Shown here: positions 3,823 to 38,658 of the stretch, piece by piece
Layout of the letters: each line of letters begins with the position of its first letter
Position numbering within the stretch: the stretch's first letter is position 1
Assembly (NCBI GenBank): GCA_002163025.1
Contig: MABF01000273.1
Location: 4,456 to 68,455, forward strand
Source of the DNA: 'Osedax' symbiont bacterium Rs2_46_30_T18
GTDB taxonomy: Bacteria > Pseudomonadota > Gammaproteobacteria > Pseudomonadales > Balneatricaceae
Length of the DNA stretch: 64,000 nt
Reading direction: 5' to 3'
Position numbers and translations under genes: made by a program
The notes under the pieces: model-generated
What the model saw: the letters and a program-made list of their open reading frames with translations, nothing else
Told to the model about the DNA's origin: nothing
Database searches by the model: none

Positions 3823-3899
3823 TGGGGTGAACGACGGGGTTTGAACCCGCGACCGCCGGAATCACAATCCGGAGCTCTACCGACTGAGCTACGCTCACC
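3823..3899 (-). tRNA. tRNA-His (anticodon GTG)
   Basis: The reverse complement is GGTGAGCGTAGCTCAGTCGGTAGAGCTCCGGATTGTGATTCCGG...TTCAAACCCCGTCGTTCACCCCA. It folds as a cloverleaf with an extra 5' G(-1), anticodon loop TTGTGAT and an encoded CCA. Confidence 0.9.
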
Positions 3900-3916
3900 A
3901 CAAAATGATATAAAAA

Positions 3917-4001
<85 letters not shown>

Positions 4002-4096
4002 GTGGCTAACAACAAATGCTATATCAAATATTTGCTGCATTCGACTTGTTTAAAAGTCTTTCTTTGCTTTTTTGGCTACTGCGCAAAGCCAGTAAA

Positions 4097-4181
<85 letters not shown>

Positions 4182-4253
4182 GTGGTCACCTAAATTCAGC
4201 GTTACACTGCCAGGCGTTTTCTGCTTTTTTTAGTTACTGTGCAAAGTCAGTAA

Positions 4254-4338
<85 letters not shown>

Positions 4339-4410
4339 GTGGTCACCTATCACAGTGTTGAACTGCTAGGTATTTCTCTGCTTTTTTGGTGACTGTGCAA
4401 AGTCAGTAAA

Positions 4411-4495
<85 letters not shown>

Positions 4496-4551
4496 GTGGT
4501 CTTACTCTGTACTTCGTGGATATTCGCAATTATCTGACTATTGTCAGAAAA

Positions 4552-4628
4552 TGGGGTGAACGACGGGGTTTGAACCCGCGACCGCCGGAATCACAATCCG
4601 GAGCTCTACCGACTGAGCTACGCTCACC
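4552..4628 (-). tRNA. tRNA-His (anticodon GTG), second copy
   Basis: The sequence is the same as 3823-3899. Confidence 0.9.
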
Positions 4629-4649
4629 ATTACACCACAGGGTAAGTTC

Positions 4650-4726
4650 TGGTACGCCCACCAGGGCTCGAACCTGGAACCTACGCCTTAGAAGGGCGTT
4701 GCTCTATCCAATTGAGCTATGGGCGC
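4650..4726 (-). tRNA. tRNA-Arg (anticodon TCT)
   Basis: The reverse complement is GCGCCCATAGCTCAATTGGATAGAGCAACGCCCTTCTAAGGCGTAGGTTCCAGGTTCGAGCCCTGGTGGGCGTACCA. The anticodon loop is CTTCTAA. Confidence 0.9.
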
Positions 4727-10017: not shown

Positions 10018-11739
10018 TTATAGCCCCTTACGCCGACGAAAACACCATTGTGGAATAGCGGTAGCCGTGACAAAAACTAACAGCGGCAACCAGAATTGCC
10101 AGAGAGCAAAACTGGCGCTGATTCTATCATCCGCGCCAGTGGCTAGGGCCACTGTTTCTGTGGTAATAGTATTAAACCGCCCTCCCGCCACATACAAAGT
10201 AGGCAAATATTGGGATACGCTGACCGCAAAGCTTATCGCAAAGCTGAAAGCAATAGGCTTAAACAACATAGGCATCTTAATCATCCAAAAACTTTTCCAT
10301 CTGGATTGACTGAGTATCATCGCCTGCTGAAAAAAACGGTTATCGAATTGTAAAAACACTTTTGCCAAGGTTAAATAACAGTAGGGCAGAACAAAAATCA
10401 AATGAGCCCAGACTAAACTCGCCAATTTCCCGTCCAACCCCAGTCCGACTAACAGTACTTGTATACCAAATAAAAACGACACTTGTGGCACCAACATAGG
10501 CAGGTAAATCAACCATAGCAACAGCTGCGAACTGTTTGAGCTCTGCTGGTTTACAGAGCGAGCGCTCTGACTCTGCCAGTGCAATATTGCAATCACCAAG
10601 GATATGGCAATCGTGGCACTACAGAAACCAACCAGTGCAGTATTGAATAGCGGCTCTGGGAGTTGCTGCCAGCTTAGCTGCCAATACTTTAGCGACCATT
10701 TACTCGGTAGCGCCAAGGGGAAACGCCACTGCTGAGCAACTGACCAGAGCAACAGCACAGCTAACGTCAGCAAGGTACTCGCCCATAAGCCAATGACAGT
10801 ATATTTTGCAATTTTTCGGTAGCCCCAAGCGAAATAACCCACGCCATAGCGTACAGGTCCGGCTAACAGCCAACCTTGTGCTATTTTAGAGCAGAGTTTC
10901 TCCAGCGCAAATATTAAGCCTAACAGCACAGTGACCAATATCAGCAACAAACTGGCCCCCGCGGCTCCCAACAACCTAAAGTCAGTATCGGCATCACCGT
11001 ACCACTGGTTGATTAGCACCGCAAAAGTTGGCGGCGACGTAGGCCCCAGAATTATGCTTAAATCAACCACTGACAGCGAATACGAAAGTACCGCGTACAA
11101 TGGTAGGCGCAACTGAGGATACATCTGCACAAAAACTAATTTTAACCAGGCCTCGCCCCTGGAGTAACCGAGAGATGCCGCCACTTGTAAAGTTTTAGCG
11201 ACATCGAAGCTGCCCATGGCCGCCAATGACATTAATAAAAAAAACGGAATTTCCTTTAATACCAATACTAAGGTCAAGCTCAGTGCGTAGCTGTCATTGA
11301 TGATTAGCCAATCCGGCGGTACATTGAAACCGCTAATACCCGGAGAAAGCAGACGCATGATCCAGCCACTCGGGGAGATCAGGAAGGCAAAACCTATACC
11401 GAAGGCGAGATGCGGAACCGCCAGCAACAGCCCAATTGAACGCTTTATCCACGACCAACTATTACTGTTGTAAAGCTGCATACACAGCCACTGGCTAATG
11501 ACAAATGCTGCACCAGTGGCCAGCAGCGCCGAACTCAATGTTGCCTGAATACTGCTATAGCTGCTGGGATGAGCAAACACAGCCAATATTGGTTCAACAG
11601 ATATTTGACTGGCACCGATACTCGGCAGATAGCCTAGTGCGGGCAGCCAAGTGCCCAGTAAACCAGCCATCACCGGCAAGATAAATAAAGCACCGGCACA
11701 GAGCGATACTAAGATTAGCTTATAGTTAGTCGCTCTCAT
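10018..11739 (-). CDS. ynjC: ABC transporter permease with fused double permease domains, YnjC-like
   Basis: 573 aa and about 12 hydrophobic segments, i.e. two tandem binding-protein-dependent permease modules, as in the ThiP/YnjC class. Confidence 0.8.
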   Translation of the reverse strand: MRATNYKLILVSLCAGALFILPVMAGLLGTWLPALGYLPSIGASQISVEPILAVFAHPSSYSSIQATLSSALLATGAAFVISQWLCMQLYNSNSWSWIKRSIGLLLAVPHLAFGIGFAFLISPSGWIMRLLSPGISGFNVPPDWLIINDSYALSLTLVLVLKEIPFFLLMSLAAMGSFDVAKTLQVAASLGYSRGEAWLKLVFVQMYPQLRLPLYAVLSYSLSVVDLSIILGPTSPPTFAVLINQWYGDADTDFRLLGAAGASLLLILVTVLLGLIFALEKLCSKIAQGWLLAGPVRYGVGYFAWGYRKIAKYTVIGLWASTLLTLAVLLLWSVAQQWRFPLALPSKWSLKYWQLSWQQLPEPLFNTALVGFCSATIAISLVIAILHWQSQSARSVNQQSSNSSQLLLWLIYLPMLVPQVSFLFGIQVLLVGLGLDGKLASLVWAHLIFVLPYCYLTLAKVFLQFDNRFFQQAMILSQSRWKSFWMIKMPMLFKPIAFSFAISFAVSVSQYLPTLYVAGGRFNTITTETVALATGADDRISASFALWQFWLPLLVFVTATAIPQWCFRRRKGL

Positions 11740-13961: not shown

Positions 13962-14957
13962 TTACTGCAATTGCAGTTGAATTTTGTTAACTCTACTTTT
14001 AAGCCGCTGAATCTCTTTATTCACTTGTGCCCTGCTACCATCGATGGCTCTTATCGCCTGCTCAGTTTTGGCTAATCTTGATGTAAGCGCAGCATCCGGC
14101 TTAGGTGCGGCTTTTTTGGCCAACACCGCCACTTTATTTGCCAGCGATTTTACAGATTTATTCACATTACTGCGGTATTGCTCAAGGGAGCTATCCACCG
14201 CGGCAGTGTCTTTTTTAACTTCTACTACATCCGCTGCAAGTTTTTTACTGCTGTTGGTAATCTCAGTGGCTAAACCTTGTAAATCTGCTGCCAGCTCTTG
14301 TCGCACTCCATCTGCTTTACTTTGATTTATTTCCAAATTTGTTAAGCTAGTACGTAAATCAGCAATTTCTGTCAGTCGCTCCTCGAGCCCTGACAATGCC
14401 GTTTTTTGCTGACTGGTCATAAAGCCCATCTCTTCCTGAGCATCTTCCTGGGCCTGTTTTATTTTTAATTCTACCTTGCCGATTTCGCTATTAAAGGCGA
14501 CTAACTGCTGTTGCTGCTGCTCGTTGGCACCTTCTATTAACTGGGCAAATTTCTTCTGGTATTCGTTGTACTGTGTATCCATCAACTGCTTTTGTTGACT
14601 GACTAACTGCTTCTGCTCATTCAGGCGCTGCTGTAACGTTTGCCCTGACTTCTTTGCTTGCGCCTGAGAGTCAGCCAACAGCTGTTCTAAATCAGCAATG
14701 CGCGACTCAGTGGCCGCCGCCATTAACTGACGCTGCTCCTGATCTTGCTGGAAGTCGTAACCTATGTAACCCATGCTTCCCACAGCCACTAATAACGCTA
14801 GCGTGACAATACTGTGTAACCAACCACTATTGCCGCGCTCAGCAAATTGCTTACGGGCAAGTTCCTGTTGTTTCTCTACTATATTATTTTCTGTATCATC
14901 TTGATTGGCAGAACCAAAGTACGGCACATCAACTTTTAACTCATCTCGTTCTGGCAT
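13962..14957 (-). CDS. Membrane-anchored coiled-coil protein, Gln/Lys/Glu-rich, function unknown
   Basis: There is a single TM segment (WLHSIVTLALLVAVGSMGYIGY). About 260 aa of heptad-like, Q-rich sequence follows. I recognise no catalytic motif. Confidence 0.55.
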   Translation of the reverse strand: MPERDELKVDVPYFGSANQDDTENNIVEKQQELARKQFAERGNSGWLHSIVTLALLVAVGSMGYIGYDFQQDQEQRQLMAAATESRIADLEQLLADSQAQAKKSGQTLQQRLNEQKQLVSQQKQLMDTQYNEYQKKFAQLIEGANEQQQQQLVAFNSEIGKVELKIKQAQEDAQEEMGFMTSQQKTALSGLEERLTEIADLRTSLTNLEINQSKADGVRQELAADLQGLATEITNSSKKLAADVVEVKKDTAAVDSSLEQYRSNVNKSVKSLANKVAVLAKKAAPKPDAALTSRLAKTEQAIRAIDGSRAQVNKEIQRLKSRVNKIQLQLQ

Positions 14958-19428: not shown

Positions 19429-19881
19429 TTAGATAGTGTGTAACTCGGGAAAGCTCGCTGCATGGTGAGTAATCCATTCAGCTGCGGCGCAGTCTATAGT
19501 CATTTCTCTGCCTTCTGTATTACTTACTTGCTGGCGGTACTGCTCAATGTGGCACACTTGCTCGATCATTCTGACTGCAAAAGCTGTTTCAGGACAGTCG
19601 AACACTACACCTGTTTGAAAACCAATCCCATCGCTGACCGACTCGCAGCTACAGATATATCCTTTGGCAAAAAATGCGGGGGTCTGTACGTTTATTTCAA
19701 CTTCGACACAACTGTTAAGGGGATAGCTGGTTGCTGTGTGTATATAGACACCAGTGCTGGCAGCTACCTGAATAGTCGGTAATGGGAACTGACTATCACT
19801 GACTACCATTTTCACTGGCACTGCACTTGGATGATGAATAAAGCTTTGTACTTGCATCTTACTTTTACCTAGATTTTTCAA
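19429..19881 (-). CDS. Small PilZ-like domain protein (degenerate), function unknown
   Basis: Its size and beta-rich pattern resemble proteins usually annotated as PilZ-domain proteins, including the C-terminal helix MIEQVCHIEQYRQ...AAEWI. I cannot find a canonical RxxxR / D-x-S-x-x-G pair. An alternative start, MQVQSF, is at 19857. Confidence 0.45.
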   Translation of the reverse strand: MKNLGKSKMQVQSFIHHPSAVPVKMVVSDSQFPLPTIQVAASTGVYIHTATSYPLNSCVEVEINVQTPAFFAKGYICSCESVSDGIGFQTGVVFDCPETAFAVRMIEQVCHIEQYRQQVSNTEGREMTIDCAAAEWITHHAASFPELHTI

Positions 19882-20739
19882 ATAAGGCTTATAAATAGTT
19901 TAGCGACTAAATTAAAAATAAATTGAGCATTATTAAATATTATTCAGCAATGAAAAAGTCTTAAGCTGATCAATATAAGTTGCACAAAAATGAACCAGAC
20001 TTATATTAATTTAAGATAAACAAATAACTTTATCATCGACCCCATTATCATCATAAACACGGGTTGCGTCTAGTCATAATCACTATATTTTAGCGACTAG
20101 TTTTTAATGCGATAACACAGCTACTTAGAGCCTTTAGCTGCTAACAGACAGCAAGACAGAGTCAAATTTTGCCCCCTACCATATATACCCTCACATTTAC
20201 TATTTAACACTAAATGTGCTTTGTTGCTGTTTATTAATTGTAGTCTATGCCGCTTTTAATTATTTTTCCTCCCTTTTAATTAAACGATCGTTTGCATTAT
20301 CAACGACTGCTGCAAAACTTTTAGCTGTTATGTAAGTTGATATTGCACCTAAAAGAAGCCATTTGTATTTTTATTGCTTAAGCTATCTGTCAAAATTATT
20401 CATGGATGACTGTTAACAATGAGGTCTGTCTGACTATCTTTAAATGGTTTTATTGCCACAAGGGTTTTGGACACAAATAAAGGCTCAAATCTAAACGGGC
20501 ATCAGTTACTGTTAATTAACCAGCACTGGTAACAACCTACAGCAAGCTGGGCAAAACTGTGACTTACAATTTATGTCGATAACGGGGAGAGATGAAAGGC
20601 TGGCTGACTTCAGAATTGATAACAACGAGATTGGACAACTTAGATCGTCCAGGACAGACAGTTGAGCTGTAACTTGTCTGTTTGGAGCATTGCAAGGAGC
20701 GGTCACACTGTCTACTTCAAGCCACGGAGGCACTTTTTT

Positions 20740-20784: not shown

Positions 20785-21471
20785 TTAAAAGACGATCCGC
20801 TTCCATTTAGTCTTGTCTGAGACAGGCCCCATATTATAACCATCCGGAGCACCTTTGGGTCCCTCCATAGTGACAACTATTTCACAGTTCAACAATCTTT
20901 CAGCCCAGCTCGGCTCGAAAGGTATAACCTTTGTGCCGGTGGCCGGCAAGAATCCAAGCGACATTGGCTCGTGCCCCTCCTCCATCAACCAGAGTTCATA
21001 AAAAGTATTCTCAGGCATGGCGACCGGGTGCTTTGATTCAATCACCAATTGACGTTTTTGCATTGAAGTATTAATAACCCAACCCGGCTCTTGTTGCGCA
21101 TTGGCAATCAGAGGAACCCAGGCGTTTTGCACTACATTAGTAGGTTGCGGCCACTGCAAAAACAATCCCACCGATAACATTAGCGCCAGCGAGAAGCCGA
21201 ACAATGATTGCCAGGACCAGACACTACCACTGGAAACTTTGGTGCGCTTATTAATCACTTTCCAAACACTGGCCGGCGGCCTAACGGGAGCAAGACTGGT
21301 ATTTAACACATCCAGATACTCACGCCACTGCTCAACCTCTTGTTGCAGGTCGTGACTGACAGCCATCAACGCTTCGACTCTGGCTTTTTCGCTCTGGCTT
21401 AAACAGCCTAAAGCATACTCAGCAGCCGCTTGATTGCGCTGGTCAATGTCACTTAAATCGAATTCATGCAT
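20785..21471 (-). CDS. Anti-sigma factor with an N-terminal anti-sigma domain, one TM segment and an RskA-type periplasmic domain
   Basis: The N-terminus has AAEYALGCLSQSEKARVEALMAVSHDLQQEVEQW. The TM segment is SLFGFSLALMLSVGLFLQW. The C-terminal domain has YELWLMEEGHEPMSLGF...VTMEGPKGAP, typical of RskA-like anti-sigma factors. I chose the ATG at 21471, which overlaps the 3' end of the sigma gene. Confidence 0.8.
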   Translation of the reverse strand: MHEFDLSDIDQRNQAAAEYALGCLSQSEKARVEALMAVSHDLQQEVEQWREYLDVLNTSLAPVRPPASVWKVINKRTKVSSGSVWSWQSLFGFSLALMLSVGLFLQWPQPTNVVQNAWVPLIANAQQEPGWVINTSMQKRQLVIESKHPVAMPENTFYELWLMEEGHEPMSLGFLPATGTKVIPFEPSWAERLLNCEIVVTMEGPKGAPDGYNMGPVSDKTKWKRIVF

Positions 21472-22028
21472 TTTCGCAACCTCTCTAACCCTCGTCGGAT
21501 CCAAGTTTTAACGGTTCCCAGGGAAGTGCCTGTTCGATCCGATAAAGCTTGGTGGGTTAAACCTTCAAAGAAGGCCATCTCTAAATATATTTTTTGCTGT
21601 TCCGGAAGCTCAGCCAGACATAAATGCATCGCTGCACTGTCTTGAGACAGTGCTACATGCTGCTCATGAGACGGTGCATCATCGGCGATAAACTCTAGTG
21701 CATCATCGCTATCATGTTGATCACTGTGCTTATTTTTTCTAAGAATATCTAGCGCTTGATTCCGGGTGATAGTATTTAACCAAGTTTGAGCTTTTGCTTT
21801 AGAGGCATCATATTTGTCTGCATTGTTCCACACTTTATAGAATACTTGCTGCAAACAATCCTCTGAGAGCGCCCTGTCTTTTAATATACGCAGTGCCACA
21901 CTGAATAGATTCGCCGAACATAAATCATATAGCTGCTTTAATGCTTTATGCTTTCCATCGGCGCAATCAAGCAAACACTGCTGTAGTTGCGCCTGTTTAT
22001 CTGTGTTATTGCCACTCAAAAATGACAT
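21453..22028 (-). CDS. ECF (group IV) sigma-70 family RNA polymerase sigma factor
   Basis: The region 2 motif is FYKVWNNADKYD...TWLNTITRNQALDILRK. Region 4 is LPEQQKIYLEMAFFEGLTHQALSDRTGTSLGTVKTWIRRGLERLR. I prefer the ATG at 22028; the ORF-track start at 22052 is a TTG. Confidence 0.85.
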   Translation of the reverse strand: MSFLSGNNTDKQAQLQQCLLDCADGKHKALKQLYDLCSANLFSVALRILKDRALSEDCLQQVFYKVWNNADKYDASKAKAQTWLNTITRNQALDILRKNKHSDQHDSDDALEFIADDAPSHEQHVALSQDSAAMHLCLAELPEQQKIYLEMAFFEGLTHQALSDRTGTSLGTVKTWIRRGLERLRKCMNSI

Positions 22029-22233
22029 AAAATAAAGTAATCCTATCAACAAAAAATAATACGTAAAAAGGATCTACACAGTAATATAAAAGCTCAACTG
22101 AATAAAGTAATAGCCGATAAATTCCAAACTATTAATAAGTTACTACCTAGCAACAGCTATTTTTTTACTTTGAACAACCCGCGTCGTTCAATTTACAACC
22201 AGCTATAAACTATGCACTGGTTGCCATGGCATA

Positions 22234-22683
22234 CTAGCGCGAAAAATATGCACGCAAATAGTTATCTACTGAGAGCTTTCCTGGGCCCCACAAGACACTG
22301 ACTAATAACATCATTCCCCACAGCTGGTGATCATAGAAACCATTACCCCAGATAACCGGATAGGATATAACTGCCACTATATTAAACAAAAATAACCCCA
22401 GTGCGGTTGCCCGAGTCAAAACCCCCAACAGCAACAACGGCGGTAACAAAAGCTCGACTGCAGTGCCTAAATACGCTGCGACTTCGTAGTGAAGAAACGG
22501 CACTTGATACTCTTCTTCAAACAAGTATAACGTTGAATCCCAACTGGCGAATTTAAGTTGTCCCGCTTTAAAAAAAGCCATTGCTGGCACTATACGCACA
22601 GCGAACAGAACAACAGGTGCCAGCCACTTCAGGCTAAGGTTAACAGCACAATCATAGCGGTCTAATAATTTTTCGATCATCAT
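22234..22683 (-). CDS. DoxX family inner-membrane protein, fourth gene of the bufferin-type cluster
   Basis: Four hydrophobic helices. FFKAGQLKFASWDSTLYLFEEEYQVPFL is typical of DoxX proteins linked to DUF692/DUF2063. It overlaps the upstream gene by 4 nt. Confidence 0.8.
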   Translation of the reverse strand: MMIEKLLDRYDCAVNLSLKWLAPVVLFAVRIVPAMAFFKAGQLKFASWDSTLYLFEEEYQVPFLHYEVAAYLGTAVELLLPPLLLLGVLTRATALGLFLFNIVAVISYPVIWGNGFYDHQLWGMMLLVSVLWGPGKLSVDNYLRAYFSR

Positions 22684-23429
22684 TCATCTCCTGTGGTAAA
22701 ACCATTAATCACAGTATTGCCAATAAAATAGTTTAATTGTTGTTGAAAATCGGCGATTTCAGCTAGCTGATCAAGTGTATCCCCTCTCGACACCGCCAGT
22801 AGAAACTCATATTGTGCTGCACTAAGACTGTAATATAGTGCACCCTCATCTTGCTGACTGGGATGCAATATCAAATATTCAGCCGATTGCATATCCACAC
22901 CTTCTAAACACTGCTTTCTCACTCCCTGCCAGATAGACAACAGCGGGTAATCGGAGGCTATCAGCAAAGTTTCCGCAGGTATTTGAAAGCGAAGCTTTGA
23001 TTGCTGCTGCTCACTTAATAAGCCTAGCTCGGCAAAGGGAAAGCTGGCTATTTCAACGACTGCTTTAGCGCGATCAAACCCCCAATCCAGTGCTGCTACT
23101 CCCGCTAGATAGGGCAGCTCACGAGTTTGTTCTACACTATCAATGAACGGAGAAAACCCAGCACCATACAGCTCAATATTTGCATTCACTAACGGCCGCT
23201 GAATAATGAAAGCCTTTGCCAGTTGCTCAAAAAACTCTTCGCCAACCAGTGCAAATACACTGGGAAAACAGCCTTTTAGATAGTCAGTTAAACTGACGTA
23301 AAAATTATTTCGGTACAAGCTCATCAACTGCTCTACCGGCAGTGGACCAGTGATATTGAGTGCCGACAAATCCACCGGTTGGTGCAGTAAGTGTCGACTG
23401 AACTGCGCTTGTAAATCCGCTAACTTCAA
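22680..23429 (-). CDS. DUF2063 family protein (BufC-like partner of the MNIO enzyme)
   Basis: LADLQAQFSRHLL...LYRNNFYVSLTDYLKGCFP is the conserved DUF2063 N-terminus. It overlaps both neighbours by 4 nt, suggesting translational coupling. Confidence 0.8.
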   Translation of the reverse strand: MKLADLQAQFSRHLLHQPVDLSALNITGPLPVEQLMSLYRNNFYVSLTDYLKGCFPSVFALVGEEFFEQLAKAFIIQRPLVNANIELYGAGFSPFIDSVEQTRELPYLAGVAALDWGFDRAKAVVEIASFPFAELGLLSEQQQSKLRFQIPAETLLIASDYPLLSIWQGVRKQCLEGVDMQSAEYLILHPSQQDEGALYYSLSAAQYEFLLAVSRGDTLDQLAEIADFQQQLNYFIGNTVINGFTTGDE

Positions 23430-24310
23430 GGTAATTGCTCCTTGCTAACAACGCCCTGCTGGTGTTGTTTTGCTAACTCTGCCTGAGACAACAGCTCCTC
23501 TAAGGCAGGGATATCAGAATCCCATTCAATCAGTGCAGGTGCGCTGCAGCGGTGCCGAAAATCACGGAACAACTGCCAGACAGCTTTCGATACTCTGCTA
23601 CCGTGGGTATCTATTAATATTTCACCATTTTCTAACTGCCTGCGGGTAAAGCCGGCCAAGTGAATTTCTTGCACTGCAGCGATGTCAATTTGTTGTAAAT
23701 ACACTTTAGCGTCCAGGCCAAGATTAATACTGTTCACATAAATATTGTTCAAATCCAATAACAGACCACAATGACAGCGCCTGTGGATTTCGTTGAGAAA
23801 CTCCCACTCCTGCATACTGCTATCGCTAAAAGCAAGGTAAGTGGTTGGGTTTTCTACCAGCAGCGCCCGGCCAAGAAAATCCTGGACCTGATTGAGCCGA
23901 TCACAAAAGATACCCAAACTCTCCTCAGTGTAAGGAACCGGCAGTAAATCATTAAAATACCGCGAGTTGCTCGAACTCCAACTTAAATGTTCAGAGATAA
24001 GTGCTGGCTGATAGCAGTCGATTAACGCCTTCATTTGCTGAAGATGCTGTTTGTTCAGCGGATCAGTAGATCCCAGAGACAGACCTATACCGTGAAAGCT
24101 CAAAGGGTAATCCAATGCCAACTGATCCAGTACTTGGCGTTGAGCGCTTGATTGATTAAAAAAGTTTTCGCTGTGCACTTCTAGCCAATCTATTTGCGGT
24201 CGCTCTGCTAACATTTGCTGGTAATGTGGCGATCTTAAACCTATGCCTATCGCATTTTTGGAGATTGATTGACTTTGGGAGTTTTCTACACGAGAGCTAG
24301 CTTGAGTCAT
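23426..24310 (-). CDS. DUF692 / MNIO (multinuclear non-heme iron oxidative) family RiPP maturase (BufB-like)
   Basis: IGIGLRSPHYQQML...IDWLEVHSENFF...FHGIGLSLGS...ISEHLSW...VENP...EIHLAGF...IDTHG is the UPF0276/MbnB-TglH-ChrH TIM-barrel pattern, with the metal-ligand His, Asp and Glu residues present. Confidence 0.85.
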   Translation of the reverse strand: MTQASSRVENSQSQSISKNAIGIGLRSPHYQQMLAERPQIDWLEVHSENFFNQSSAQRQVLDQLALDYPLSFHGIGLSLGSTDPLNKQHLQQMKALIDCYQPALISEHLSWSSSNSRYFNDLLPVPYTEESLGIFCDRLNQVQDFLGRALLVENPTTYLAFSDSSMQEWEFLNEIHRRCHCGLLLDLNNIYVNSINLGLDAKVYLQQIDIAAVQEIHLAGFTRRQLENGEILIDTHGSRVSKAVWQLFRDFRHRCSAPALIEWDSDIPALEELLSQAELAKQHQQGVVSKEQLP

Positions 24311-24418
24311 ATGAATGAGCTGCCGTTAATTAATACAATATACTGCATTGTGATACTGGCATGATAAAGATTATCCAGATGCCTCTGCGATCTACACTAC
24401 TTGACAGACTAAGGGTTA

Positions 24419-24459
24419 GCTTTACACTTTAAAGCTCATAAAAAGATAAAGTGTAAAGC
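24419..24459 (-). other. Perfect 13-bp stem-loop in the precursor-maturase intergenic spacer
   Basis: GCTTTACACTTTA (24419-24431), a 15-nt loop, then TAAAGTGTAAAGC (24447-24459). No U-tract follows on the minus strand. Confidence 0.6.
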
Positions 24460-24529
24460 TGTAAAACCAAAGCGACTGAAAAATCATCATCCCCTTGGCC
24501 TAAACCGCTCAAGCCTCTGCAAACAAAGA

Positions 24530-24790
24530 TTAAGCTTTAGGTTTAAGGCTACCACCGGCAAGCTTTTCACAAAGCCCTTTTGCAACAGCAATAAAAGCAT
24601 CACCTTGATTATCAACTTTGGAAGTACCAGCACAAGAACTGTTATTAGTTGCACAATCATTCTGACCGGCAGCGGCTACGCCGTAACATCTTTCTTTACT
24701 TCCCGCCATTGCTGGAGCGGAAATCATAGTTGCACCCATTGCGATAATTCCTGTAATCGCTGTTGCAGCTGCTAAGTTTGTCTTTGACAT
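24530..24790 (-). CDS. DUF2282 / BufA1-type secreted RiPP precursor (bufferin-like metallophore peptide)
   Basis: A Sec signal peptide (…[16 protein letters not shown]|GS) is followed by [50 protein letters not shown], with four Cys at the spacing typical of DUF2282. I chose the ATG at 24790, 8 nt after AGGA; the ORF track begins at a TTG at 24796. Confidence 0.8.
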
Positions 24791-25004
24791 AATCAAGTTC
24801 CTATAAATTTACAGTTGTTTGGGCTTATTTGGATAACGCACCCGCTTGGTTTTGGACAGTTGGAAAAGCAACATTTTTGCACTTAACCATCCGTTCCTTA
24901 ATTTATACGCTAGCTTAAATATTATAGATTCAATTATTTGCGATTATTTATAAATGGCCTAGCAAATGAGACAATTATATTTTTCACCGCTTATACTGCA
25001 AGTT

Positions 25005-34998: not shown

Positions 34999-37686
34999 TC
35001 AGGTTGTTGCCTTTTTAGCCTTTGCTGCTGTTTTCTTTGGCTTGGCTTTACTGGCAGCTTTTTTAACTTTGGCTTTAGGCACATCTTCTATCCATTTTGA
35101 GCCGTTGTAAAACGCTTTCCAACCGGTAGCTTTAGCTTCCACCTCAGTCATAACATATTGCTCTTTGGTCTTCCTTGAATAGCGAACGATAGTGTCATTG
35201 CCTAAGTTGTCTTGCAGCGGGGCACTAAAAAGAAAATTGTACTTAGAATCTATGGCTTCTTGATGAGGAAGCAACTCATAAACCTTCGGCGCTCTGGTCT
35301 CTCGGTTACGTGGAAACTTACTGGCTGCCAAAAACAACCCGGCAGCTCCATCTCGAAGGATATAGGTATCTTCAACTTTTTCACATACCAGCTCTGGCAT
35401 AGCCACCGGATCCATTTTCGGTGGTGCTGCCTCACCGCTGCGCAACAGTTTGCGAGTATTTTTACAATCGTCATTAGTACAGCCGAAGAACTTACCGAAA
35501 CGGCCTGTCTTGAGCTGCATTTCACTGGAGCACTTATCACACTCAAGTGAAGGGCCTTCATAGCCTTTAATGCGGTATTCACCGTGCTCAACCTCAAAGC
35601 CGGAGCAATCGGGATTATTGCCACATACATGCAGTTTACGGCCAGTATCTATTAAATAACTATCCATGGCACTGTCACAAGTTTGGCAGCGATGTTTATT
35701 GAGTAGAATACGTGACTCTTCCTCATCATCGCCATCAACACTGACCACCTCATCGCCCGATGTCAGGTTCAGCGTTTCCTTGCAACGCTCTTTAGGCGGT
35801 AGCGCATAACCTGAACAACCCAAAAACACACCGGTCGTTCCCGTGCGAATCATCATTGGTCGCTCACAGCTACTGCATGAGATATCCGTAAGGGTAGGCT
35901 CGTTCTGACGCATACCATTTTCACCTGAAGCTATCTTTAGCTTCTCAGTGAACTCACCGTAAAACTCATCCAGTAACGCCTTCCACTCCTTACTGCCTTT
36001 AGCTACATCATCCAGGGCACTTTCCATTCTCGCGGTAAAGCTAAAGTCCATCAGATCAGCAAAGTTTTCACTGAGTCGCTCGATCACAATATCGCCCATT
36101 TTACAGGCGTAAAAGCGCTTATTTTGTATTTCCACATAACCACGATCTTGGATCGTAGAGATAATTGATGCGTAAGTTGAAGGTCTGCCTATGCCTTTTT
36201 TCTCTAACTCTTTAACTAAACTGGCTTCGGTAAAACGCGCTGTGGGCTTGGTAAAATGTTGCTTCGGATCTAACGAGATTAAATTAAGAATCTCCCCCGC
36301 CTTAACATCCGGTAAAATCACATCTTCGTCTTTTCCGCTCATTACTCGGGTATAACCATCGAAGCGCAAAATTCGACCTTTTGTGGTCAATTCAAACTCA
36401 TCCGCAGAAACAGTTATTCTTGAACTGGTATAGAGCGCAGGCATCATCTGACAGGCGAGAAAGCGTCGTCTTATCAACTCATACAAACGCTCTGCATCTC
36501 TCTCCATACCCACCAGTTTGGTTGCCTCAATAGCGACATCGGAGGGGCGGATAGCCTCGTGCGCCTCCTGAGCCCCCTCTTTACTTGAGTAACTTTTTGG
36601 CTCTTCTGGCAAATATTTCTTACCAAAATTATCCAGAATATAGTCTCTACAAGCCGTAACCGCATCCGCACTTAAGTTGGTTGAATCGGTACGCATGTAA
36701 GTGATGTAGCCGGCTTCATACAAACGCTGAGCCATCATCATGGTCTTCTTTACCCCAAAGCCTAATCGGGTACTGGCAGATTGCTGTAACGTTGAGGTAA
36801 TAAAGGGAGCTGATGCCTTACTGCTGGTCTTGCGGTCTTCACGATTGACCACTTTAAATTCTGCCGCTTCTAATAACTGCTGATGGACGGCGGTATCAAC
36901 CTGATTATCGGGACGGTAATTAGTGTTTTGATATTTGCTGACTTGCAGTGTTATCTCACCAGCTCCAACAGAGGCTGCTGTGGCACCCATTTCCCAAAAC
37001 TCTTCCGGGATAAACGCTCGGATTTCTTTCTCTCTGTCTACCACCAGTTTAACTGCAACAGACTGGACACGACCGGCGGAGAGACCACGAGCTACCTTCT
37101 CCCAAAGAAGTGGTGACAACATATAGCCTACTACTCGATCCAAAAACCGCCTGGCTTGCTGAGCATTAACATGATGAATATCTAGCACGGTAGGAGCCTC
37201 AAATGCCCCTTGAATGGCTTTCTTGGTAATCTCATTAAAGACCACCCGACTATACCTGCTATCATCTCCACCTATAGTCTCACGCAAGTGCCATGCAATT
37301 GCCTCACCCTCCCTATCCAAATCGGTCGCGAGGTAGATAGTGTCGGCATCTTTTGCTAAGCGCTTAAGCTCTTCGACCACTTTCTCTTTACCCGGGAGTA
37401 TCTGATACTGTGCCTGCCATTGATTATCCGGGTCGATGCCCATTCTGGCAATAAGCTGAGTCTTAGCTTTTTTAGCTTGGTAAATAGCTTTTGCTTCTGG
37501 AGACATTTTGCGCGTCAGTGCCGCCTGCTTAGCTCTGGCTTTTGGGTCAGACTTAGAGGCACTGCCACTGGTGGGCAGATCCCTGATATGGCCCACACTT
37601 GATTTGACTATGTATTGGCTGCCAAGATACTTGTTGATAGTTTTGGCTTTTGCCGGGGACTCCACGATAACGAGCGACTTTCCCAT
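34999..37686 (-). CDS. topA: DNA topoisomerase I
   Basis: The TOPRIM N-terminus is [32 protein letters not shown] carries the active-site Tyr. The C-terminus has multiple Cys4 zinc ribbons and a Lys-rich tail. I chose the start at 37686; the ORF track adds 15 atypical residues. Confidence 0.95.
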
Positions 37687-37950: not shown

Positions 37951-38658
37951 ATGTTAATAGAAAACCTCATATATATTATAGCCATTGTCTGCATTGGTGT
38001 TCTGGCTATCGGCCTCAATTACTTTATCACCAACAGAGAGCGTGATAGCAGCAACAAGTATGAGCGCTTGAACTGGCTCAATGAACAGGCAACTCGTACC
38101 TTAGAGGCAATGAAAGCGCTGAAAGAGGCAAACTGCAAACCTGAAATTATCGACAGATTAAATCAGCATGTGACTTTGCAGATAGAGGAAATAAGCACCC
38201 TTGCTCCCGATTCAGAAATAATGAATCGCATTAATCAGAAAAAAGAAACCACCGACAATACTATGTCCTCTGCCAGACATTTAAGTAATGACAGAGAATT
38301 AAAGCGCATTCAGATTTACATCACTTATACCGAAAAACTTATCCGGCAAATGGTCAGAAATCGCAGTATCAATATGAAGCTGGGTAAAACTTACATGAGC
38401 GAGCTGTATTGGTTGAACATCAGGAATGTCGTAGACGCTCACCGCACTCAGGCAGATAGAGTCATGGAAAACGATGATAAGCTCACTGCTCTCTCGCACC
38501 TCAAACACGCCAAGGCAGTCATCTTCAGGGCGCAAGTTTCTCAGGCTTTAAAGCAGGAAAGACTGACCGATATACAACAGAAGATTGATAAGATTGAACC
38601 AAAGAAAACCCCTTATCTTAGCCCAGACGATGAAGATGAAATGAATAATTTTTATTGA
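37951..38658 (+). CDS. Hypothetical protein with an N-terminal TM anchor and a helical cytoplasmic domain
   Basis: A clean 235-aa ORF with the hydrophobic N-terminus IYIIAIVCIGVLAIGLNYFI. I recognise no motif. Confidence 0.55.
   Translation: MLIENLIYIIAIVCIGVLAIGLNYFITNRERDSSNKYERLNWLNEQATRTLEAMKALKEANCKPEIIDRLNQHVTLQIEEISTLAPDSEIMNRINQKKETTDNTMSSARHLSNDRELKRIQIYITYTEKLIRQMVRNRSINMKLGKTYMSELYWLNIRNVVDAHRTQADRVMENDDKLTALSHLKHAKAVIFRAQVSQALKQERLTDIQQKIDKIEPKKTPYLSPDDEDEMNNFY

What the first reader, a model, noticed from the sequence alone, without database searches (positions are those of the whole stretch)
20785..24897. Bufferin/gig-type periplasmic RiPP metallophore cluster (DUF2282 precursor, DUF692 MNIO enzyme, DUF2063 partner, DoxX) with a dedicated ECF sigma/anti-sigma pair
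Six co-oriented minus-strand genes make up this locus.
- A small Sec-secreted four-Cys peptide.
- A DUF692 TIM-barrel enzyme.
- A DUF2063 protein.
- A DoxX membrane protein. The last three are linked by 4-nt overlaps.
- After a 181-205 nt gap (depending on the sigma start codon chosen), an ECF sigma factor whose 3' end overlaps a membrane anti-sigma factor with an RskA-type periplasmic domain.

Established knowledge: DUF692 enzymes are multinuclear non-heme iron oxidases (MbnB/TglH/ChrH family). They modify Cys residues of RiPP precursors together with a partner protein. The DUF2282 + DUF692 + DUF2063 + DoxX arrangement was recently linked to copper-chelating 'bufferin' peptides with Cys-derived thiooxazole heterocycles. 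It was linked earlier to the gold/copper-induced gig genes of Cupriavidus.

Inference: this locus makes an uncharacterised periplasmic metal-binding peptide. Its expression may be controlled by envelope metal stress sensed through the anti-sigma factor. This is the only natural-product-like system in the window. Its product, metal specificity and regulation are unknown for this organism.
Basis: partly seen in the sequence, partly recalled or inferred. Interest (0 to 1): 0.85.

Follow-up and report, generated by a model that had tools for sequence, protein, structure and literature searches.

The report
Bufferin copper-peptide operon, SigK/RskA-controlled
This is a typical gene cluster for a bufferin, a known family of secreted copper-binding peptides; its only unusual feature is a different type of stress-sensing switch from the published examples, whose DNA recognition sites can be read directly from the sequence.

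Summary
Six co-oriented minus-strand genes (20785-24790) encode a DUF2282/BufA1 precursor, an MNIO enzyme (BufB), a DUF2063 partner (BufC), DoxX, an ECF sigma factor and an RskA_C anti-sigma factor. All pass curated Pfam cut-offs, and BufB also passes its NCBIfam equivalog cut-off.

This is a Buf1-type bufferin cluster. That family has been characterised since 2024 and has thousands of members, and an ECF link is already published (Caulobacter SigF/NrsF, Cupriavidus RpoQ/RsqA). The core is therefore ordinary.

Three points are new:
- The regulator is a SigK/RskA-type pair, not the published SigF/NrsF (ECF16) type. It stays next to buf genes through a gene-order permutation, and the same pairing occurs in a separate alphaproteobacterial clade.
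- An invariant promoter, TGAATC-N17-CGTATA, precedes the first bufA of every related gammaproteobacterial locus that includes that region. It occurs once in the 64-kb window.
- A second copy lies inside the sigma gene in all 13 relatives, held at synonymous sites (p≈0.0009). It probably drives an anti-sigma-only feedback transcript, like E. coli rseA P3.

The product chemistry, the metal bound and the inducing signal are inferred by homology only. Interest is moderate, about 0.4.

The parts
24904..24932 (-). P_bufA, a candidate ECF promoter. The -35 TGAATC is at 24927-24932, followed by a 17-nt spacer and the -10 CGTATA at 24904-24909. It lies 114 nt upstream of the bufA ATG.
   Evidence: It is invariant upstream of the first bufA in 9 loci (10 promoters, because both L004 copies have one) while the flanks diverge. 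It is the only exact hit in the window, with 0.21 expected. In the 27 loci held at that point it occurs only upstream of bufA copies. It is close to the published ECF18 consensus GCATCC/CGTAT.
24530..24790 (-). bufA, the 86-aa Buf1/DUF2282 precursor. It has a 29-aa Sec signal peptide (...APAMA|GSKER) and a 57-aa core with Cys35, Cys46, Cys53 and Cys74.
   Evidence: Pfam DUF2282 scores 82.2 bits over the full profile. The four Cys are invariant in 14 copies. Cys spacing is 11/7/21, against 11/8/21 in Caulobacter Buf1.
24418..24501 (-). Two stem-loops in the 219-nt bufA-bufB gap. Hairpin 1 (24464-24501) is followed by UUUUA. Hairpin 2 (24418-24460) has a 14-bp stem. They probably act as a partial terminator or mRNA stabiliser that sets the precursor:enzyme ratio.
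   Evidence: RNA fold is -45.2 kcal/mol, z = -3.8, with 0 of 200 shuffles folding as well. Stable hairpins after bufA fold better than shuffles in L001-L003 and after the first bufA of L004 (not after its second, z = -1.2), with different sequences in L003/L004. The function is inferred.
23426..24310 (-). bufB, the MNIO (DUF692) maturase, 294 aa.
   Evidence: Pfam MbnB_TglH_ChrH scores 338 bits. NCBIfam MNIO_BufB equivalog scores 367.1, above its cut-off of 310. The best PDB sequence match is 3BWW, a DUF692 protein, at 1.7e-46.
22680..23429 (-). bufC, the DUF2063 partner protein, 249 aa, with an N-terminal DUF2063 domain and a C-terminal alpha/beta domain.
   Evidence: Pfam DUF2063 scores 64.6 bits on residues 6-96. 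The AF2 model has pLDDT 83 and pTM 0.77. The best Foldseek hits are chain A of the TglHI holoenzyme entries 8HCI/8HI7 (taken to be TglI; 6e-6) and NGO1945/3DEE (1.4e-4), each over about 230 columns.
22234..22683 (-). doxX (bufD), a membrane protein of 149 aa.
   Evidence: Pfam DoxX scores 46.4 bits. It resembles NCBIfam HvfX (47 bits) but is below that cut-off of 80. It is linked to bufC by a 4-nt overlap.
22083..22110 (-). Candidate housekeeping (sigma-70-type) promoter for the sigma/anti-sigma genes: TTACTT-N16-TATATT.
   Evidence: The block is conserved in all 8 loci with the bufABCD-to-sigma gene order (TTGCTT/TTACTT ... TATATT) and absent from the permuted loci. This is a weak, inferred assignment; the generic promoter scan did not flag it.
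21453..22028 (-). SigK-type ECF sigma factor, 191 aa from the ATG (an alternative TTG start is at 22052).
   Evidence: Pfam Sigma70_r2 and r4_2 match. The NCBIfam ECF superfamily model scores 101.8, above 42.9, but the SigK subfamily model scores 136, below 226. Sequence matches to solved structures are RpoE 2Q1Z (3.5e-24) and Mtb SigK 4NQW (7.8e-22). C137 and C187 align with the two SigK cysteines and are invariant in 13 genes.
21885..21913 (-). Internal promoter-like element inside the sigma ORF: CGAATCTAT-N14-CGTATA, covering codons 39-48. It lies 414 nt upstream of the anti-sigma ATG. The proposed function is a sigma-dependent, anti-sigma-only transcript.
   Evidence: It matches P_bufA at 14 of 15 specified bases, with 0.009 such hits expected per window. 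It sits at the same position in all 13 distinct sigma genes. The motif codons are frozen at synonymous sites (0.11 against 0.53; permutation p = 0.0009) and use minority codons. The function is inferred.
20785..21471 (-). RskA-type anti-sigma factor, 228 aa. It has a Cys-free helical N-terminal sigma-binding domain, one transmembrane helix (about residues 88-102) and a periplasmic beta-sandwich (RskA_C).
   Evidence: Pfam RskA_C scores 40.4 bits, above 29.4, and there is no NrsF hit. The AF2 model shows helices 9-59, a helix at 88-102 and a beta domain at 117-203 with pLDDT about 80.

Best explanation
The locus is a Buf1-type bufferin gene cluster (bufA-bufB-bufC-doxX) joined to its own SigK/RskA-type ECF sigma/anti-sigma switch. 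The proposed mechanism runs as follows.

1. A housekeeping-type promoter upstream of the sigma gene gives basal sigma and anti-sigma. The anti-sigma's N-terminal domain holds the sigma at the membrane.
2. An envelope signal inactivates the anti-sigma and frees the sigma. The signal is most likely periplasmic copper or a related thiol/redox stress. The sigma's own conserved Cys pair may contribute.
3. Sigma-RNA polymerase starts at P_bufA (TGAATC-N17-CGTATA). Hairpins after bufA keep the precursor mRNA in excess, while read-through expresses bufB, bufC and doxX. In this gene order, read-through may also reach the sigma and anti-sigma genes.
4. The same sigma starts at a copy of its promoter inside its own ORF. 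This gives a transcript that can encode only the anti-sigma, which resets the system.
5. In the cytoplasm, BufB (iron-dependent MNIO) and BufC convert Cys46 and Cys53 of BufA into 5-thiooxazoles. Sec exports the peptide, signal peptidase cuts after Ala29, and Cys35-Cys74 form a disulfide. The 57-residue product chelates copper in the periplasm.

Shown here: gene content, family membership, conserved linkage, and the two conserved promoter-like motifs. Inferred: every biochemical and regulatory activity.
For: - Family membership: with BufB above its equivalog cut-off.
- Precursor: it has the Buf1 Cys pattern and an AxA site, conserved in 14 copies. In Caulobacter Buf1, CysII and CysIII become thiooxazoles and CysI-CysIV form the disulfide (PMC11626156).
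- BufC: the model matches chain A of the TglHI holoenzyme entries (taken to be the partner TglI) and NGO1945 over both domains.
- Linkage: the whole six-gene arrangement recurs in L001-L004 and L032, and L028-L030 and L033 show it as far as their contigs reach.
- Permutation: in L037-L039 the sigma/anti-sigma module sits upstream of bufA(x1-3)-bufB-bufC-doxX.
- Independent lineage: the alphaproteobacterial loci L013 and L045 show the same pairing with a TGCATC-N17-CGT(A/T) promoter.
- P_bufA: invariant in 10 of 10 promoters, unique in the window, and ECF18-like.
- Internal motif: present in 13 of 13 sigma genes, frozen at synonymous sites with p = 0.0009, and built from minority codons.
- Precedent: E. 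coli has a sigmaE-dependent promoter inside rpoE that drives rseABC (PMC8595263).
- SigK-type features: the Cys pair is present, and such cysteines are a feature of ECF18/19.
Against: - No transcript, start-site or expression data exist for this organism, and no chemistry was tested.
- The sigma does not reach the NCBIfam SigK subfamily cut-off (136 against 226) and scores slightly better against R. sphaeroides RpoE, an ECF11 sigma.
- The -35 differs from the ECF18 consensus at one base.
- The internal motif is not kept in the alphaproteobacterial clade: L013 has GGAAAC at the -35.
- The anti-sigma's periplasmic domain has no recognisable metal site and only generic Ig/FN3 fold matches.
- In Cupriavidus, RpoQ dependence of gig could not be demonstrated, so adjacency does not always mean control.
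- Osedax symbiont Rs1 (L040) has the sigma/anti-sigma pair without adjacent buf genes.
- DoxX was dispensable in Caulobacter.
Confidence: 0.8

Rival explanations
1. The sigma/anti-sigma pair is only a neighbour. It controls other genes, such as a fasciclin-type SigK regulon, and the buf operon is driven by another regulator.
For: - Related RskA pairs at 44% identity or less have no buf neighbour (L041-L043, L046), and one sits beside a fasciclin gene (L044).
- L040 has the pair without adjacent buf genes.
- In Cupriavidus, gig expression could not be tied to the adjacent RpoQ.
Against: - The two modules stay adjacent through a permutation of their order, down to 57-66% sigma identity.
- The same bipartite motif lies upstream of bufA and inside the sigma gene.
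- The motif matches the promoter type expected for this sigma clade.
- With up to 2 mismatches there is no other copy in 64 kb.
Confidence: 0.07
2. The motif inside the sigma gene is not a promoter. Its conservation reflects protein constraint plus local codon or mRNA-level constraint, and its resemblance to P_bufA is coincidental.
For: - The peptide SANLFSVALRIL is highly conserved, so many of its bases are fixed anyway.
- Only 13 related sequences are available, and they are not independent.
- The -35 starts with C rather than T.
- The alphaproteobacterial clade lacks a good internal copy.
- A few other codons (K77, D94, R183, C187) are also invariant at synonymous sites.
Against: - Both boxes match with identical spacing, at 14 of 15 bases, with 0.009 expected per window.
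- The motif codons are frozen while the five spacer codons between them vary freely (p = 0.0009).
- The frozen codons are minority codons: CTA is 10% of Leu, CGT 22% of Arg, ATA 24% of Ile.
- One sequence that changes Ala39 to Ser still keeps the CG of CGAATC.
- E. coli rseA P3 is a documented precedent.
Confidence: 0.35
3. The system responds mainly to oxidative, hypochlorite or thiol stress rather than to copper, and the peptide serves redox protection or binds another metal.
For: - The sigma keeps the SigK Cys pair, which is reported to sense oxidative stress in M. tuberculosis.
- The anti-sigma has no evident metal site.
- Caulobacter SigF was described as responding to chromium and cadmium.
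- No copper-homeostasis genes lie nearby.
Against: - Characterised Buf1 is induced by copper, not by Fe, Zn or Mn, and binds Cu(II) with a KD of about 6e-15 M through its thiooxazoles (PMC11626156).
- gig is induced by copper and gold.
- The precursor here keeps all four Cys at nearly the same spacing.
Confidence: 0.2

Closest known systems
Caulobacter vibrioides buf1ABCD with sigF-nrsF (bufferin 1; PMC11626156, PMC3511200)
   Same: - Same four biosynthetic genes in the same order: DUF2282 precursor with a Sec signal peptide and four Cys, MNIO, DUF2063 partner, DoxX.
- An ECF sigma/anti-sigma pair lies nearby and controls expression.
   Different: - The regulator family differs. Caulobacter uses SigF with the six-transmembrane NrsF and the promoter GTAACC-N16-CGAA.
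- Here the anti-sigma is single-pass RskA_C type, the sigma carries the SigK Cys pair, and the promoter is TGAATC-N17-CGTATA.
- No SigF-type motif occurs in the locus.
- The core peptide is 57 aa rather than 68 aa, and the CysII-CysIII spacing is 7 rather than 8.
Cupriavidus metallidurans gigPABT with rpoQ-rsqA (PMC10304878, PMC13492112)
   Same: - Homologous four-gene operon, induced by copper and gold.
- An adjacent ECF sigma plus a membrane anti-sigma.
   Different: - rpoQ-rsqA is divergent from gig and is assigned to ECF16.
- No RpoQ promoter was found upstream of gig, and RpoQ dependence was not demonstrated.
- Here the pair is co-oriented, of another ECF type, and a clear conserved ECF-type promoter precedes bufA.
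Mycobacterium tuberculosis SigK-RskA (mpt83-sigK-rskA cassette; PDB 4NQW; PMC7509140)
   Same: - Sigma aligns to SigK at 7.8e-22, and both SigK cysteines are conserved.
- The anti-sigma has the RskA_C domain, and the sigma and anti-sigma genes overlap.
   Different: - The regulated neighbour is a bufferin operon, not a fasciclin (mpt70/83) gene.
- The sigma is below the NCBIfam SigK subfamily cut-off.
- The anti-sigma has no detectable sequence match to the RskA fragment in the PDB.
E. coli rpoE-rseABC with the sigmaE-dependent rseA P3 promoter inside rpoE (PMC8595263)
   Same: A sigma-dependent promoter inside the sigma coding region that can only express the downstream anti-sigma. This gives a dedicated negative-feedback transcript with a long 5' leader: 228 nt in E. 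coli and about 400 nt here.
   Different: - Unrelated ECF group, promoter sequence and regulon.
- Here the element is predicted from conservation only, and the sigma gene itself shows no upstream copy of the motif.
Haemophilus influenzae HvfABCX and Neisseria/Fontimonas MNIO-PME1 clusters (oxazolin, gonophorin, fontiphorin; PMC11252979, PMC13097082)
   Same: MNIO plus DUF2063 partner plus DoxX-like protein acting on Cys of a secreted precursor. These proteins give the second-best NCBIfam hits (HvfB 234.8, HvfX 47, HvfC 18 bits).
   Different: - All Hvf models score below their cut-offs here.
- The precursor is DUF2282, not an EGKCG-repeat protein.

Membership tests
Buf1-type bufferin biosynthetic cluster (bufABCD) | Precursor belongs to DUF2282/BufA1 (PF10048) | tested here: met
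   82.2 bits against a cut-off of 22.4, covering profile positions 1-53 of 53. The BufA2 model scores only 29.6, below its cut-off of 60, so this is Buf1, not Buf2.
Buf1-type bufferin biosynthetic cluster (bufABCD) | N-terminal Sec signal peptide on the precursor | tested here: met
   Judged by inspection only, since no predictor was available. The sequence has Lys3, a hydrophobic stretch at 6-25 and an A-M-A|G site after residue 29, conserved in 14 copies.
Buf1-type bufferin biosynthetic cluster (bufABCD) | Four conserved Cys; the two central ones are the modification sites and the outer two form the disulfide | tested here: met
   Cys35, 46, 53 and 74 are invariant in 14 copies. Spacing is 11/7/21, against 11/8/21 for Caulobacter Cys12/23/31/52. 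Only the pattern was tested, not the chemistry.
Buf1-type bufferin biosynthetic cluster (bufABCD) | MNIO enzyme of the BufB type | tested here: met
   NCBIfam MNIO_BufB equivalog scores 367.1, above 310. The HvfB, ApyH, MbnB and ChrH models are all below their cut-offs. Pfam scores 338 bits.
Buf1-type bufferin biosynthetic cluster (bufABCD) | Partner protein with an N-terminal DUF2063 domain and a C-terminal RRE-like domain | tested here: met
   Pfam DUF2063 scores 64.6 bits. The AF2 model has pLDDT 83. Full-length Foldseek matches are to chain A of the TglHI holoenzyme entries (taken to be TglI; 6e-6) and to 3DEE (1.4e-4).
Buf1-type bufferin biosynthetic cluster (bufABCD) | DoxX-family membrane protein (BufD) | tested here: met
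   Pfam DoxX scores 46.4 bits, above 23.6. The gene is translationally coupled to bufC.
Buf1-type bufferin biosynthetic cluster (bufABCD) | Cys-to-5-thiooxazole modification and copper binding by the mature peptide | not testable with these tools
   This needs co-expression, high-resolution MS/MS or NMR, and metal titration.
SigF/NrsF (ECF16) regulators of bufferin clusters | Anti-sigma of the NrsF family (PF06532, six transmembrane segments) | tested here: not met
   The anti-sigma matches only RskA_C. The model shows one transmembrane helix plus a periplasmic beta domain. NrsF is described as having six transmembrane segments.
SigF/NrsF (ECF16) regulators of bufferin clusters | Target promoter GTAACC-N16-CGAA | tested here: not met
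   The only match in the window lies inside the topoisomerase I gene at 35285-35309 and is at chance level. There is none in the locus.
SigK/RskA-type ECF pair (ECF18/19 clade) | Anti-sigma with an RskA_C periplasmic domain, encoded directly after the sigma gene | tested here: met
   RskA_C scores 40.4 bits, above 29.4. The genes overlap by 19 nt.
SigK/RskA-type ECF pair (ECF18/19 clade) | Two conserved cysteines in the sigma factor (Mtb SigK C133/C183) | tested here: met
   C137 and C187 align with the two Cys of 4NQW chain A and are invariant in 13 genes. PMC7509140 reports them in 94% of ECF18 and 56% of ECF19.
SigK/RskA-type ECF pair (ECF18/19 clade) | Sigma reaches a curated SigK-subfamily score | tested here: not met
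   NCBIfam PRK09646 (SigK) scores 136.1, below 226. The best models, PRK12514/12534/12537, are also below their cut-offs. No ECF-group classifier was available, so I cannot say whether it is ECF18, ECF19 or a neighbouring group.
SigK/RskA-type ECF pair (ECF18/19 clade) | Target promoter resembling the group consensus (-35 GCATCC, -10 CGTAT) | tested here: inconclusive
   In the window clade the -10 CGTATA matches, while the -35 TGAATC differs at one base. The alphaproteobacterial loci L013 and L045 have TGCATC-N17-CGT(T/A), a full match. No binding or start-site data exist.
SigK/RskA-type ECF pair (ECF18/19 clade) | Fasciclin (mpt70/83-like) gene in the cassette | tested here: not met
   There is no fasciclin gene in the locus. 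A distant relative, L044, has one.

The most novel reading that the evidence does not exclude
A SigK/RskA-type ECF module has been recruited as the dedicated switch of Buf1 bufferin operons, in at least two separate lineages (Nitrincolaceae/Motiliproteus and Hyphomicrobiales). Its RskA periplasmic domain would then be a previously unrecognised sensor of periplasmic copper or of bufferin occupancy. In the gammaproteobacterial clade, a promoter embedded in the sigma ORF gives an anti-sigma-only feedback transcript. This would be a second, mechanistically distinct regulatory solution for bufferins and a new function for the SigK/RskA family.
Probability: 0.45. Interest if true: 0.55.

Novelty: new variant of a known kind. 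Interest (0 to 1): 0.4.

Why it matters
Bufferins are a very widespread bacterial answer to copper stress, but how cells decide to make them has been studied only for the SigF/NrsF type. Even there, the Cupriavidus case remains unresolved.

This locus offers a cleaner case. It has a different sigma/anti-sigma family and a sharply defined, conserved target promoter. It also has a probable built-in feedback promoter inside the sigma gene. All of these can be tested with a two-plasmid reporter assay.

The work also gives the SigK/RskA family, best known from mycobacterial antigen regulation, a concrete envelope-stress output in marine Proteobacteria, including relatives of Osedax bone-worm symbionts.

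The biosynthetic core adds nothing new.

Tried and rejected
- **Generic promoter and terminator scan of the locus:** counts were at or below shuffle level and nothing useful was flagged on the minus strand.
- **Rfam on the whole window:** only the seven tRNAs matched.
- **PDB sequence searches:** nothing meaningful for the anti-sigma, BufC or BufA.
- **Anti-sigma structure:** the model is of moderate quality (pLDDT 68). Foldseek gave only generic FN3/Ig matches with E above 0.03, so the fold says nothing about sensing.
- **ECF motif upstream of the sigma gene itself:** none found in either gene order. I therefore dropped classical positive autoregulation from an upstream ECF promoter and kept only possible read-through.
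- **Internal motif in the alphaproteobacterial clade:** not conserved there, so it is a clade-specific feature.
- **Met-rich periplasmic stretch as a general Cu(I) sensor:** present in the alphaproteobacterial members next to buf but absent from the window's clade, so it is not used in the main explanation.
- **Hairpin after the anti-sigma gene as a terminator:** z = -1.8 and no U-tract, so not claimed.
- **NrsF next to the sigma genes of L006 and L007:** the neighbouring ORFs match neither NrsF nor RskA_C.
- **CTA as a rare codon:** I checked rather than assumed, because the window carries four tRNA-Leu(TAG) genes. CTA is 10% of Leu codons.

Full report
**Observation.**
The region 20785-24796 carries six co-oriented minus-strand ORFs.
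- 88/86-aa peptide: DUF2282, 82.2 bits.
- 294-aa protein: MbnB_TglH_ChrH, 338 bits.
- 249-aa protein: DUF2063, 64.6 bits.
- 149-aa protein: DoxX, 46.4 bits.
- 191/199-aa protein: ECF-type sigma regions 2 and 4.
- 228/239-aa protein: RskA_C, 40.4 bits.

The MNIO enzyme also exceeds the NCBIfam cut-off for the BufB equivalog (367.1 against 310). It fails the cut-offs for HvfB, ApyH, MbnB and ChrH.

The sequence shows the junctions as described. bufB/bufC overlap on TTGA and bufC/doxX on ATGA. The gap before the sigma gene is 181 or 205 nt. The sigma gene's 3' end overlaps the anti-sigma ATG by 19 nt.

Small corrections follow. bufA most likely starts at the ATG at 24790, 8 nt after an AGGA. bufA and bufB are separated by 219 nt. 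The stretch 24791-24897 is leader, not coding sequence.

**Origin and context.**
The nearest relatives are Nitrincolaceae/Oceanospirillaceae genomes, including Osedax symbiont Rs2. The window is ordinary core chromosome, with clpP, tig, uvrB, gpsA, lexA and topA, and no copper-resistance genes nearby.

**The biosynthetic core is a Buf1 bufferin cluster.**
Bufferins were described in 2024 in Caulobacter. There, buf1ABCD encodes a Sec-exported DUF2282 precursor whose two central Cys become 5-thiooxazoles through BufB plus BufC. The outer Cys form a disulfide, DoxX is dispensable, and the product binds copper (PMC11626156).

The precursor here has the same layout. It has a 29-residue signal peptide ending A-M-A, and four Cys spaced 11/7/21 against 11/8/21 in Caulobacter. 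All four are invariant in 14 copies from related loci.

BufC was modelled from a nine-sequence alignment (pLDDT 83, pTM 0.77). Its best structural matches cover both domains: chain A of the TglHI holoenzyme entries, which I take to be the MNIO partner TglI, and the DUF2063 prototype NGO1945. BufB's best solved relative is the DUF692 protein 3BWW.

By homology, Cys46 and Cys53 are the expected thiooxazole sites and Cys35-Cys74 the disulfide. None of this chemistry can be tested here.

**The regulator is of a different type from the published ones.**
The literature links Buf1 clusters to ECF sigma factors with NrsF anti-sigmas (PMC12452194). NrsF has six transmembrane segments, and the Caulobacter SigF promoter is GTAACC-N16-CGAA. 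Cupriavidus RpoQ is assigned to ECF16.

Here the anti-sigma matches only RskA_C. Its model shows a helical N-terminal domain, one transmembrane helix and a periplasmic beta-sandwich.

The sigma aligns to M. tuberculosis SigK (7.8e-22), with C137 and C187 on the two SigK cysteines. Those cysteines characterise ECF18/19. The sigma does not reach the NCBIfam SigK subfamily cut-off and scores as well against R. sphaeroides RpoE. I therefore call it SigK/RskA-type without naming an ECF group.

No SigF-type motif occurs in the locus. No paper in the searchable library mentions RskA together with bufferin, DUF692, DUF2063 or DUF2282.

**Linkage.**
The full six-gene arrangement recurs in L001-L004 and L032; L028-L030 and L033 show it as far as their contigs reach.

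In more distant relatives, with sigma 57-66% and anti-sigma 55-64% identical, the order is permuted to sigma, anti-sigma, one to three bufA copies, bufB, bufC, doxX. The two modules remain adjacent.

A separate alphaproteobacterial subclade (L013, L045; anti-sigma 25% identical) has sigma, RskA, bufA, bufB, bufC. Relatives of that subclade at 44% identity or less lack buf genes, and one has the classical fasciclin neighbour. Osedax symbiont Rs1 has the pair without adjacent buf genes.

The coupling is therefore subclade-specific but recurrent. Other distant bufB loci carry ECF sigmas whose neighbouring ORFs match neither NrsF nor RskA_C, so regulator diversity around these clusters is broad.

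**Promoter of the operon.**
Aligning the DNA upstream of bufA from the window and its relatives shows one invariant bipartite block in otherwise diverged sequence: TGAATCTAT-N14-CGTATA, that is TGAATC, a 17-nt spacer and CGTATA.

It occurs once in the 64-kb window, with 0.21 expected. In the loci held at that point it occurred only upstream of bufA copies. It precedes the first bufA in every related gammaproteobacterial locus that includes that region, the permuted ones too, 59-114 nt before the start codon.

The alphaproteobacterial loci have TGCATC-N17-CGT(T/A) at the same place. Both forms are close to the ECF18 consensus quoted in PMC13492112, which is -35 GCATCC and -10 CGTAT.

This is the best evidence that the adjacent sigma directly drives the operon. 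It remains a prediction.

**A second copy inside the sigma gene.**
Allowing mismatches gave one further hit in the window: CGAATCTAT-N14-CGTATA at 21885-21913, inside the sigma ORF at codons 39-48. About 0.009 such hits are expected per window. The element is at the same position in all 13 distinct sigma genes collected.

The peptide is conserved, so I tested the synonymous sites.
- The motif codons N40, L41, R47 and I48 show a mean pairwise codon difference of 0.11, against 0.53 for the other 71 invariant-residue degenerate codons (permutation p = 0.0009).
- The five codons between the two boxes vary freely.
- The frozen codons are minority codons: CTA is 10% of Leu, CGT 22% of Arg and ATA 24% of Ile.

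A transcript from this site could not encode the sigma factor but would include the anti-sigma gene 414 nt downstream. E. coli has exactly this arrangement: the sigmaE-dependent rseA P3 promoter lies inside rpoE (PMC8595263).

I therefore propose a sigma-dependent, anti-sigma-only feedback transcript, and give this sub-claim a probability of about 0.6. It is not conserved in the alphaproteobacterial clade.

**Other elements.**
The bufA-bufB gap folds into two strong hairpins (-45.2 kcal/mol, z = -3.8), the first followed by UUUUA. Stable hairpins fold better than shuffles after bufA in L001-L003 and after the first bufA of L004, but not after its second copy (z = -1.2); those of L003 and L004 are unrelated in sequence. 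This fits the common RiPP design in which the precursor mRNA is kept in excess over the enzyme mRNAs, but that role is inferred.

Upstream of the sigma gene, loci with the bufABCD-to-sigma order share a block reading TTGCTT/TTACTT-N16-TATATT, which I read as a housekeeping-type promoter. No ECF motif lies there. Any positive feedback in this gene order would have to come from read-through out of doxX.

The hairpin after the anti-sigma gene is not significant.

**What senses the signal.**
This is the weakest part. The anti-sigma family alignment shows a Cys-free cytoplasmic domain and a periplasmic domain with several invariant residues and near-invariant Met. The fold search returned only generic Ig/FN3 matches.

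In the alphaproteobacterial subclade, the members next to buf carry a Met-rich M-x-M-P-x-P-x-x-M-D-M-P stretch that is degraded in relatives without buf neighbours. From my own knowledge, such stretches resemble Cu(I) sites. The window's clade lacks it, and the sample is small.

Copper as the signal therefore rests on homology with Caulobacter and Cupriavidus. A redox signal acting through the SigK cysteines is a live alternative.

**Verdict.**
The core is a new member of a well-described and very large family, and ECF control of such clusters is already known.

The regulatory layer is new relative to the literature I could search. It comprises a SigK/RskA-type pair instead of SigF/NrsF, a sharply defined conserved target promoter, and a probable feedback promoter inside the sigma ORF.

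I class it as a new variant of a known kind, with moderate interest (0.4).

Noticed in passing
window 3823-4726 (minus strand): An array of seven tRNA genes: His, Leu(TAG) x4, His, Arg(TCT). The four tRNA-Leu(TAG) copies read CTA, which is only 10% of Leu codons in the window's long ORFs.
   Followed up: partly
L004 4730-5785; L038 7602-8317; L039 7648-8679: bufA copy number varies from one to three among relatives. In L004 each of the two copies has its own TGAATC...CGTATA promoter. In L038 and L039 only the first copy has one.
   Followed up: partly
window about 24832-24844 (minus strand), in the bufA 5' leader: The sequence TGCGTTATCCAAA is conserved in the leader in the window, L001, L002 and L003, at a different distance from the promoter in L003. 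It is absent from L004. Its function is unknown; it could be an operator or a leader element.
   Followed up: no
L013 1911-2648 and L045 5001-5738 (anti-sigma genes); proteins P0052-P0056 compared with P0058-P0088: Alphaproteobacterial RskA anti-sigmas next to buf genes carry a Met-rich periplasmic stretch (for example FMYMPMPDRMDMPEP). It is degraded in relatives without buf neighbours. It may be a Cu(I) site. The window's own clade lacks it.
   Followed up: partly
L007 6013-7824: An Archangium MAG encodes a single 603-aa protein that fuses the MNIO domain and the DUF2063 partner domain (BufB-BufC fusion).
   Followed up: no
L040 5944-7187: Osedax symbiont Rs1 has the orthologous sigma/anti-sigma pair, including the internal promoter-like motif, but no adjacent buf genes. 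An IS66-family transposase lies about 4.5 kb upstream. Whether buf genes exist elsewhere in that genome was not checked.
   Followed up: no
L041 and L045: These two Hyphomicrobiales-type contigs share the same genes upstream of the sigma/RskA pair: pantoate ligase, DUF1489, biotin carboxylase and Fer2-guanylate cyclase. Only L045 has bufABC downstream, so the buf genes were gained or lost next to a resident regulator.
   Followed up: partly
window 19882-20400 and 19429-19881 (minus strand): A roughly 500-nt non-coding block is conserved only with L001 and contains a repeated TAGTCGCTAA(A/T)ATA motif. It lies upstream of a 150-aa ORF with no Pfam or NCBIfam match, which is 91% identical in L001.
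   Followed up: no
window 10018-11739, 13962-14957, 37951-38658: Three sizeable ORFs (573, 331 and 235 aa) have no Pfam match at E <= 1e-5.
   Followed up: no
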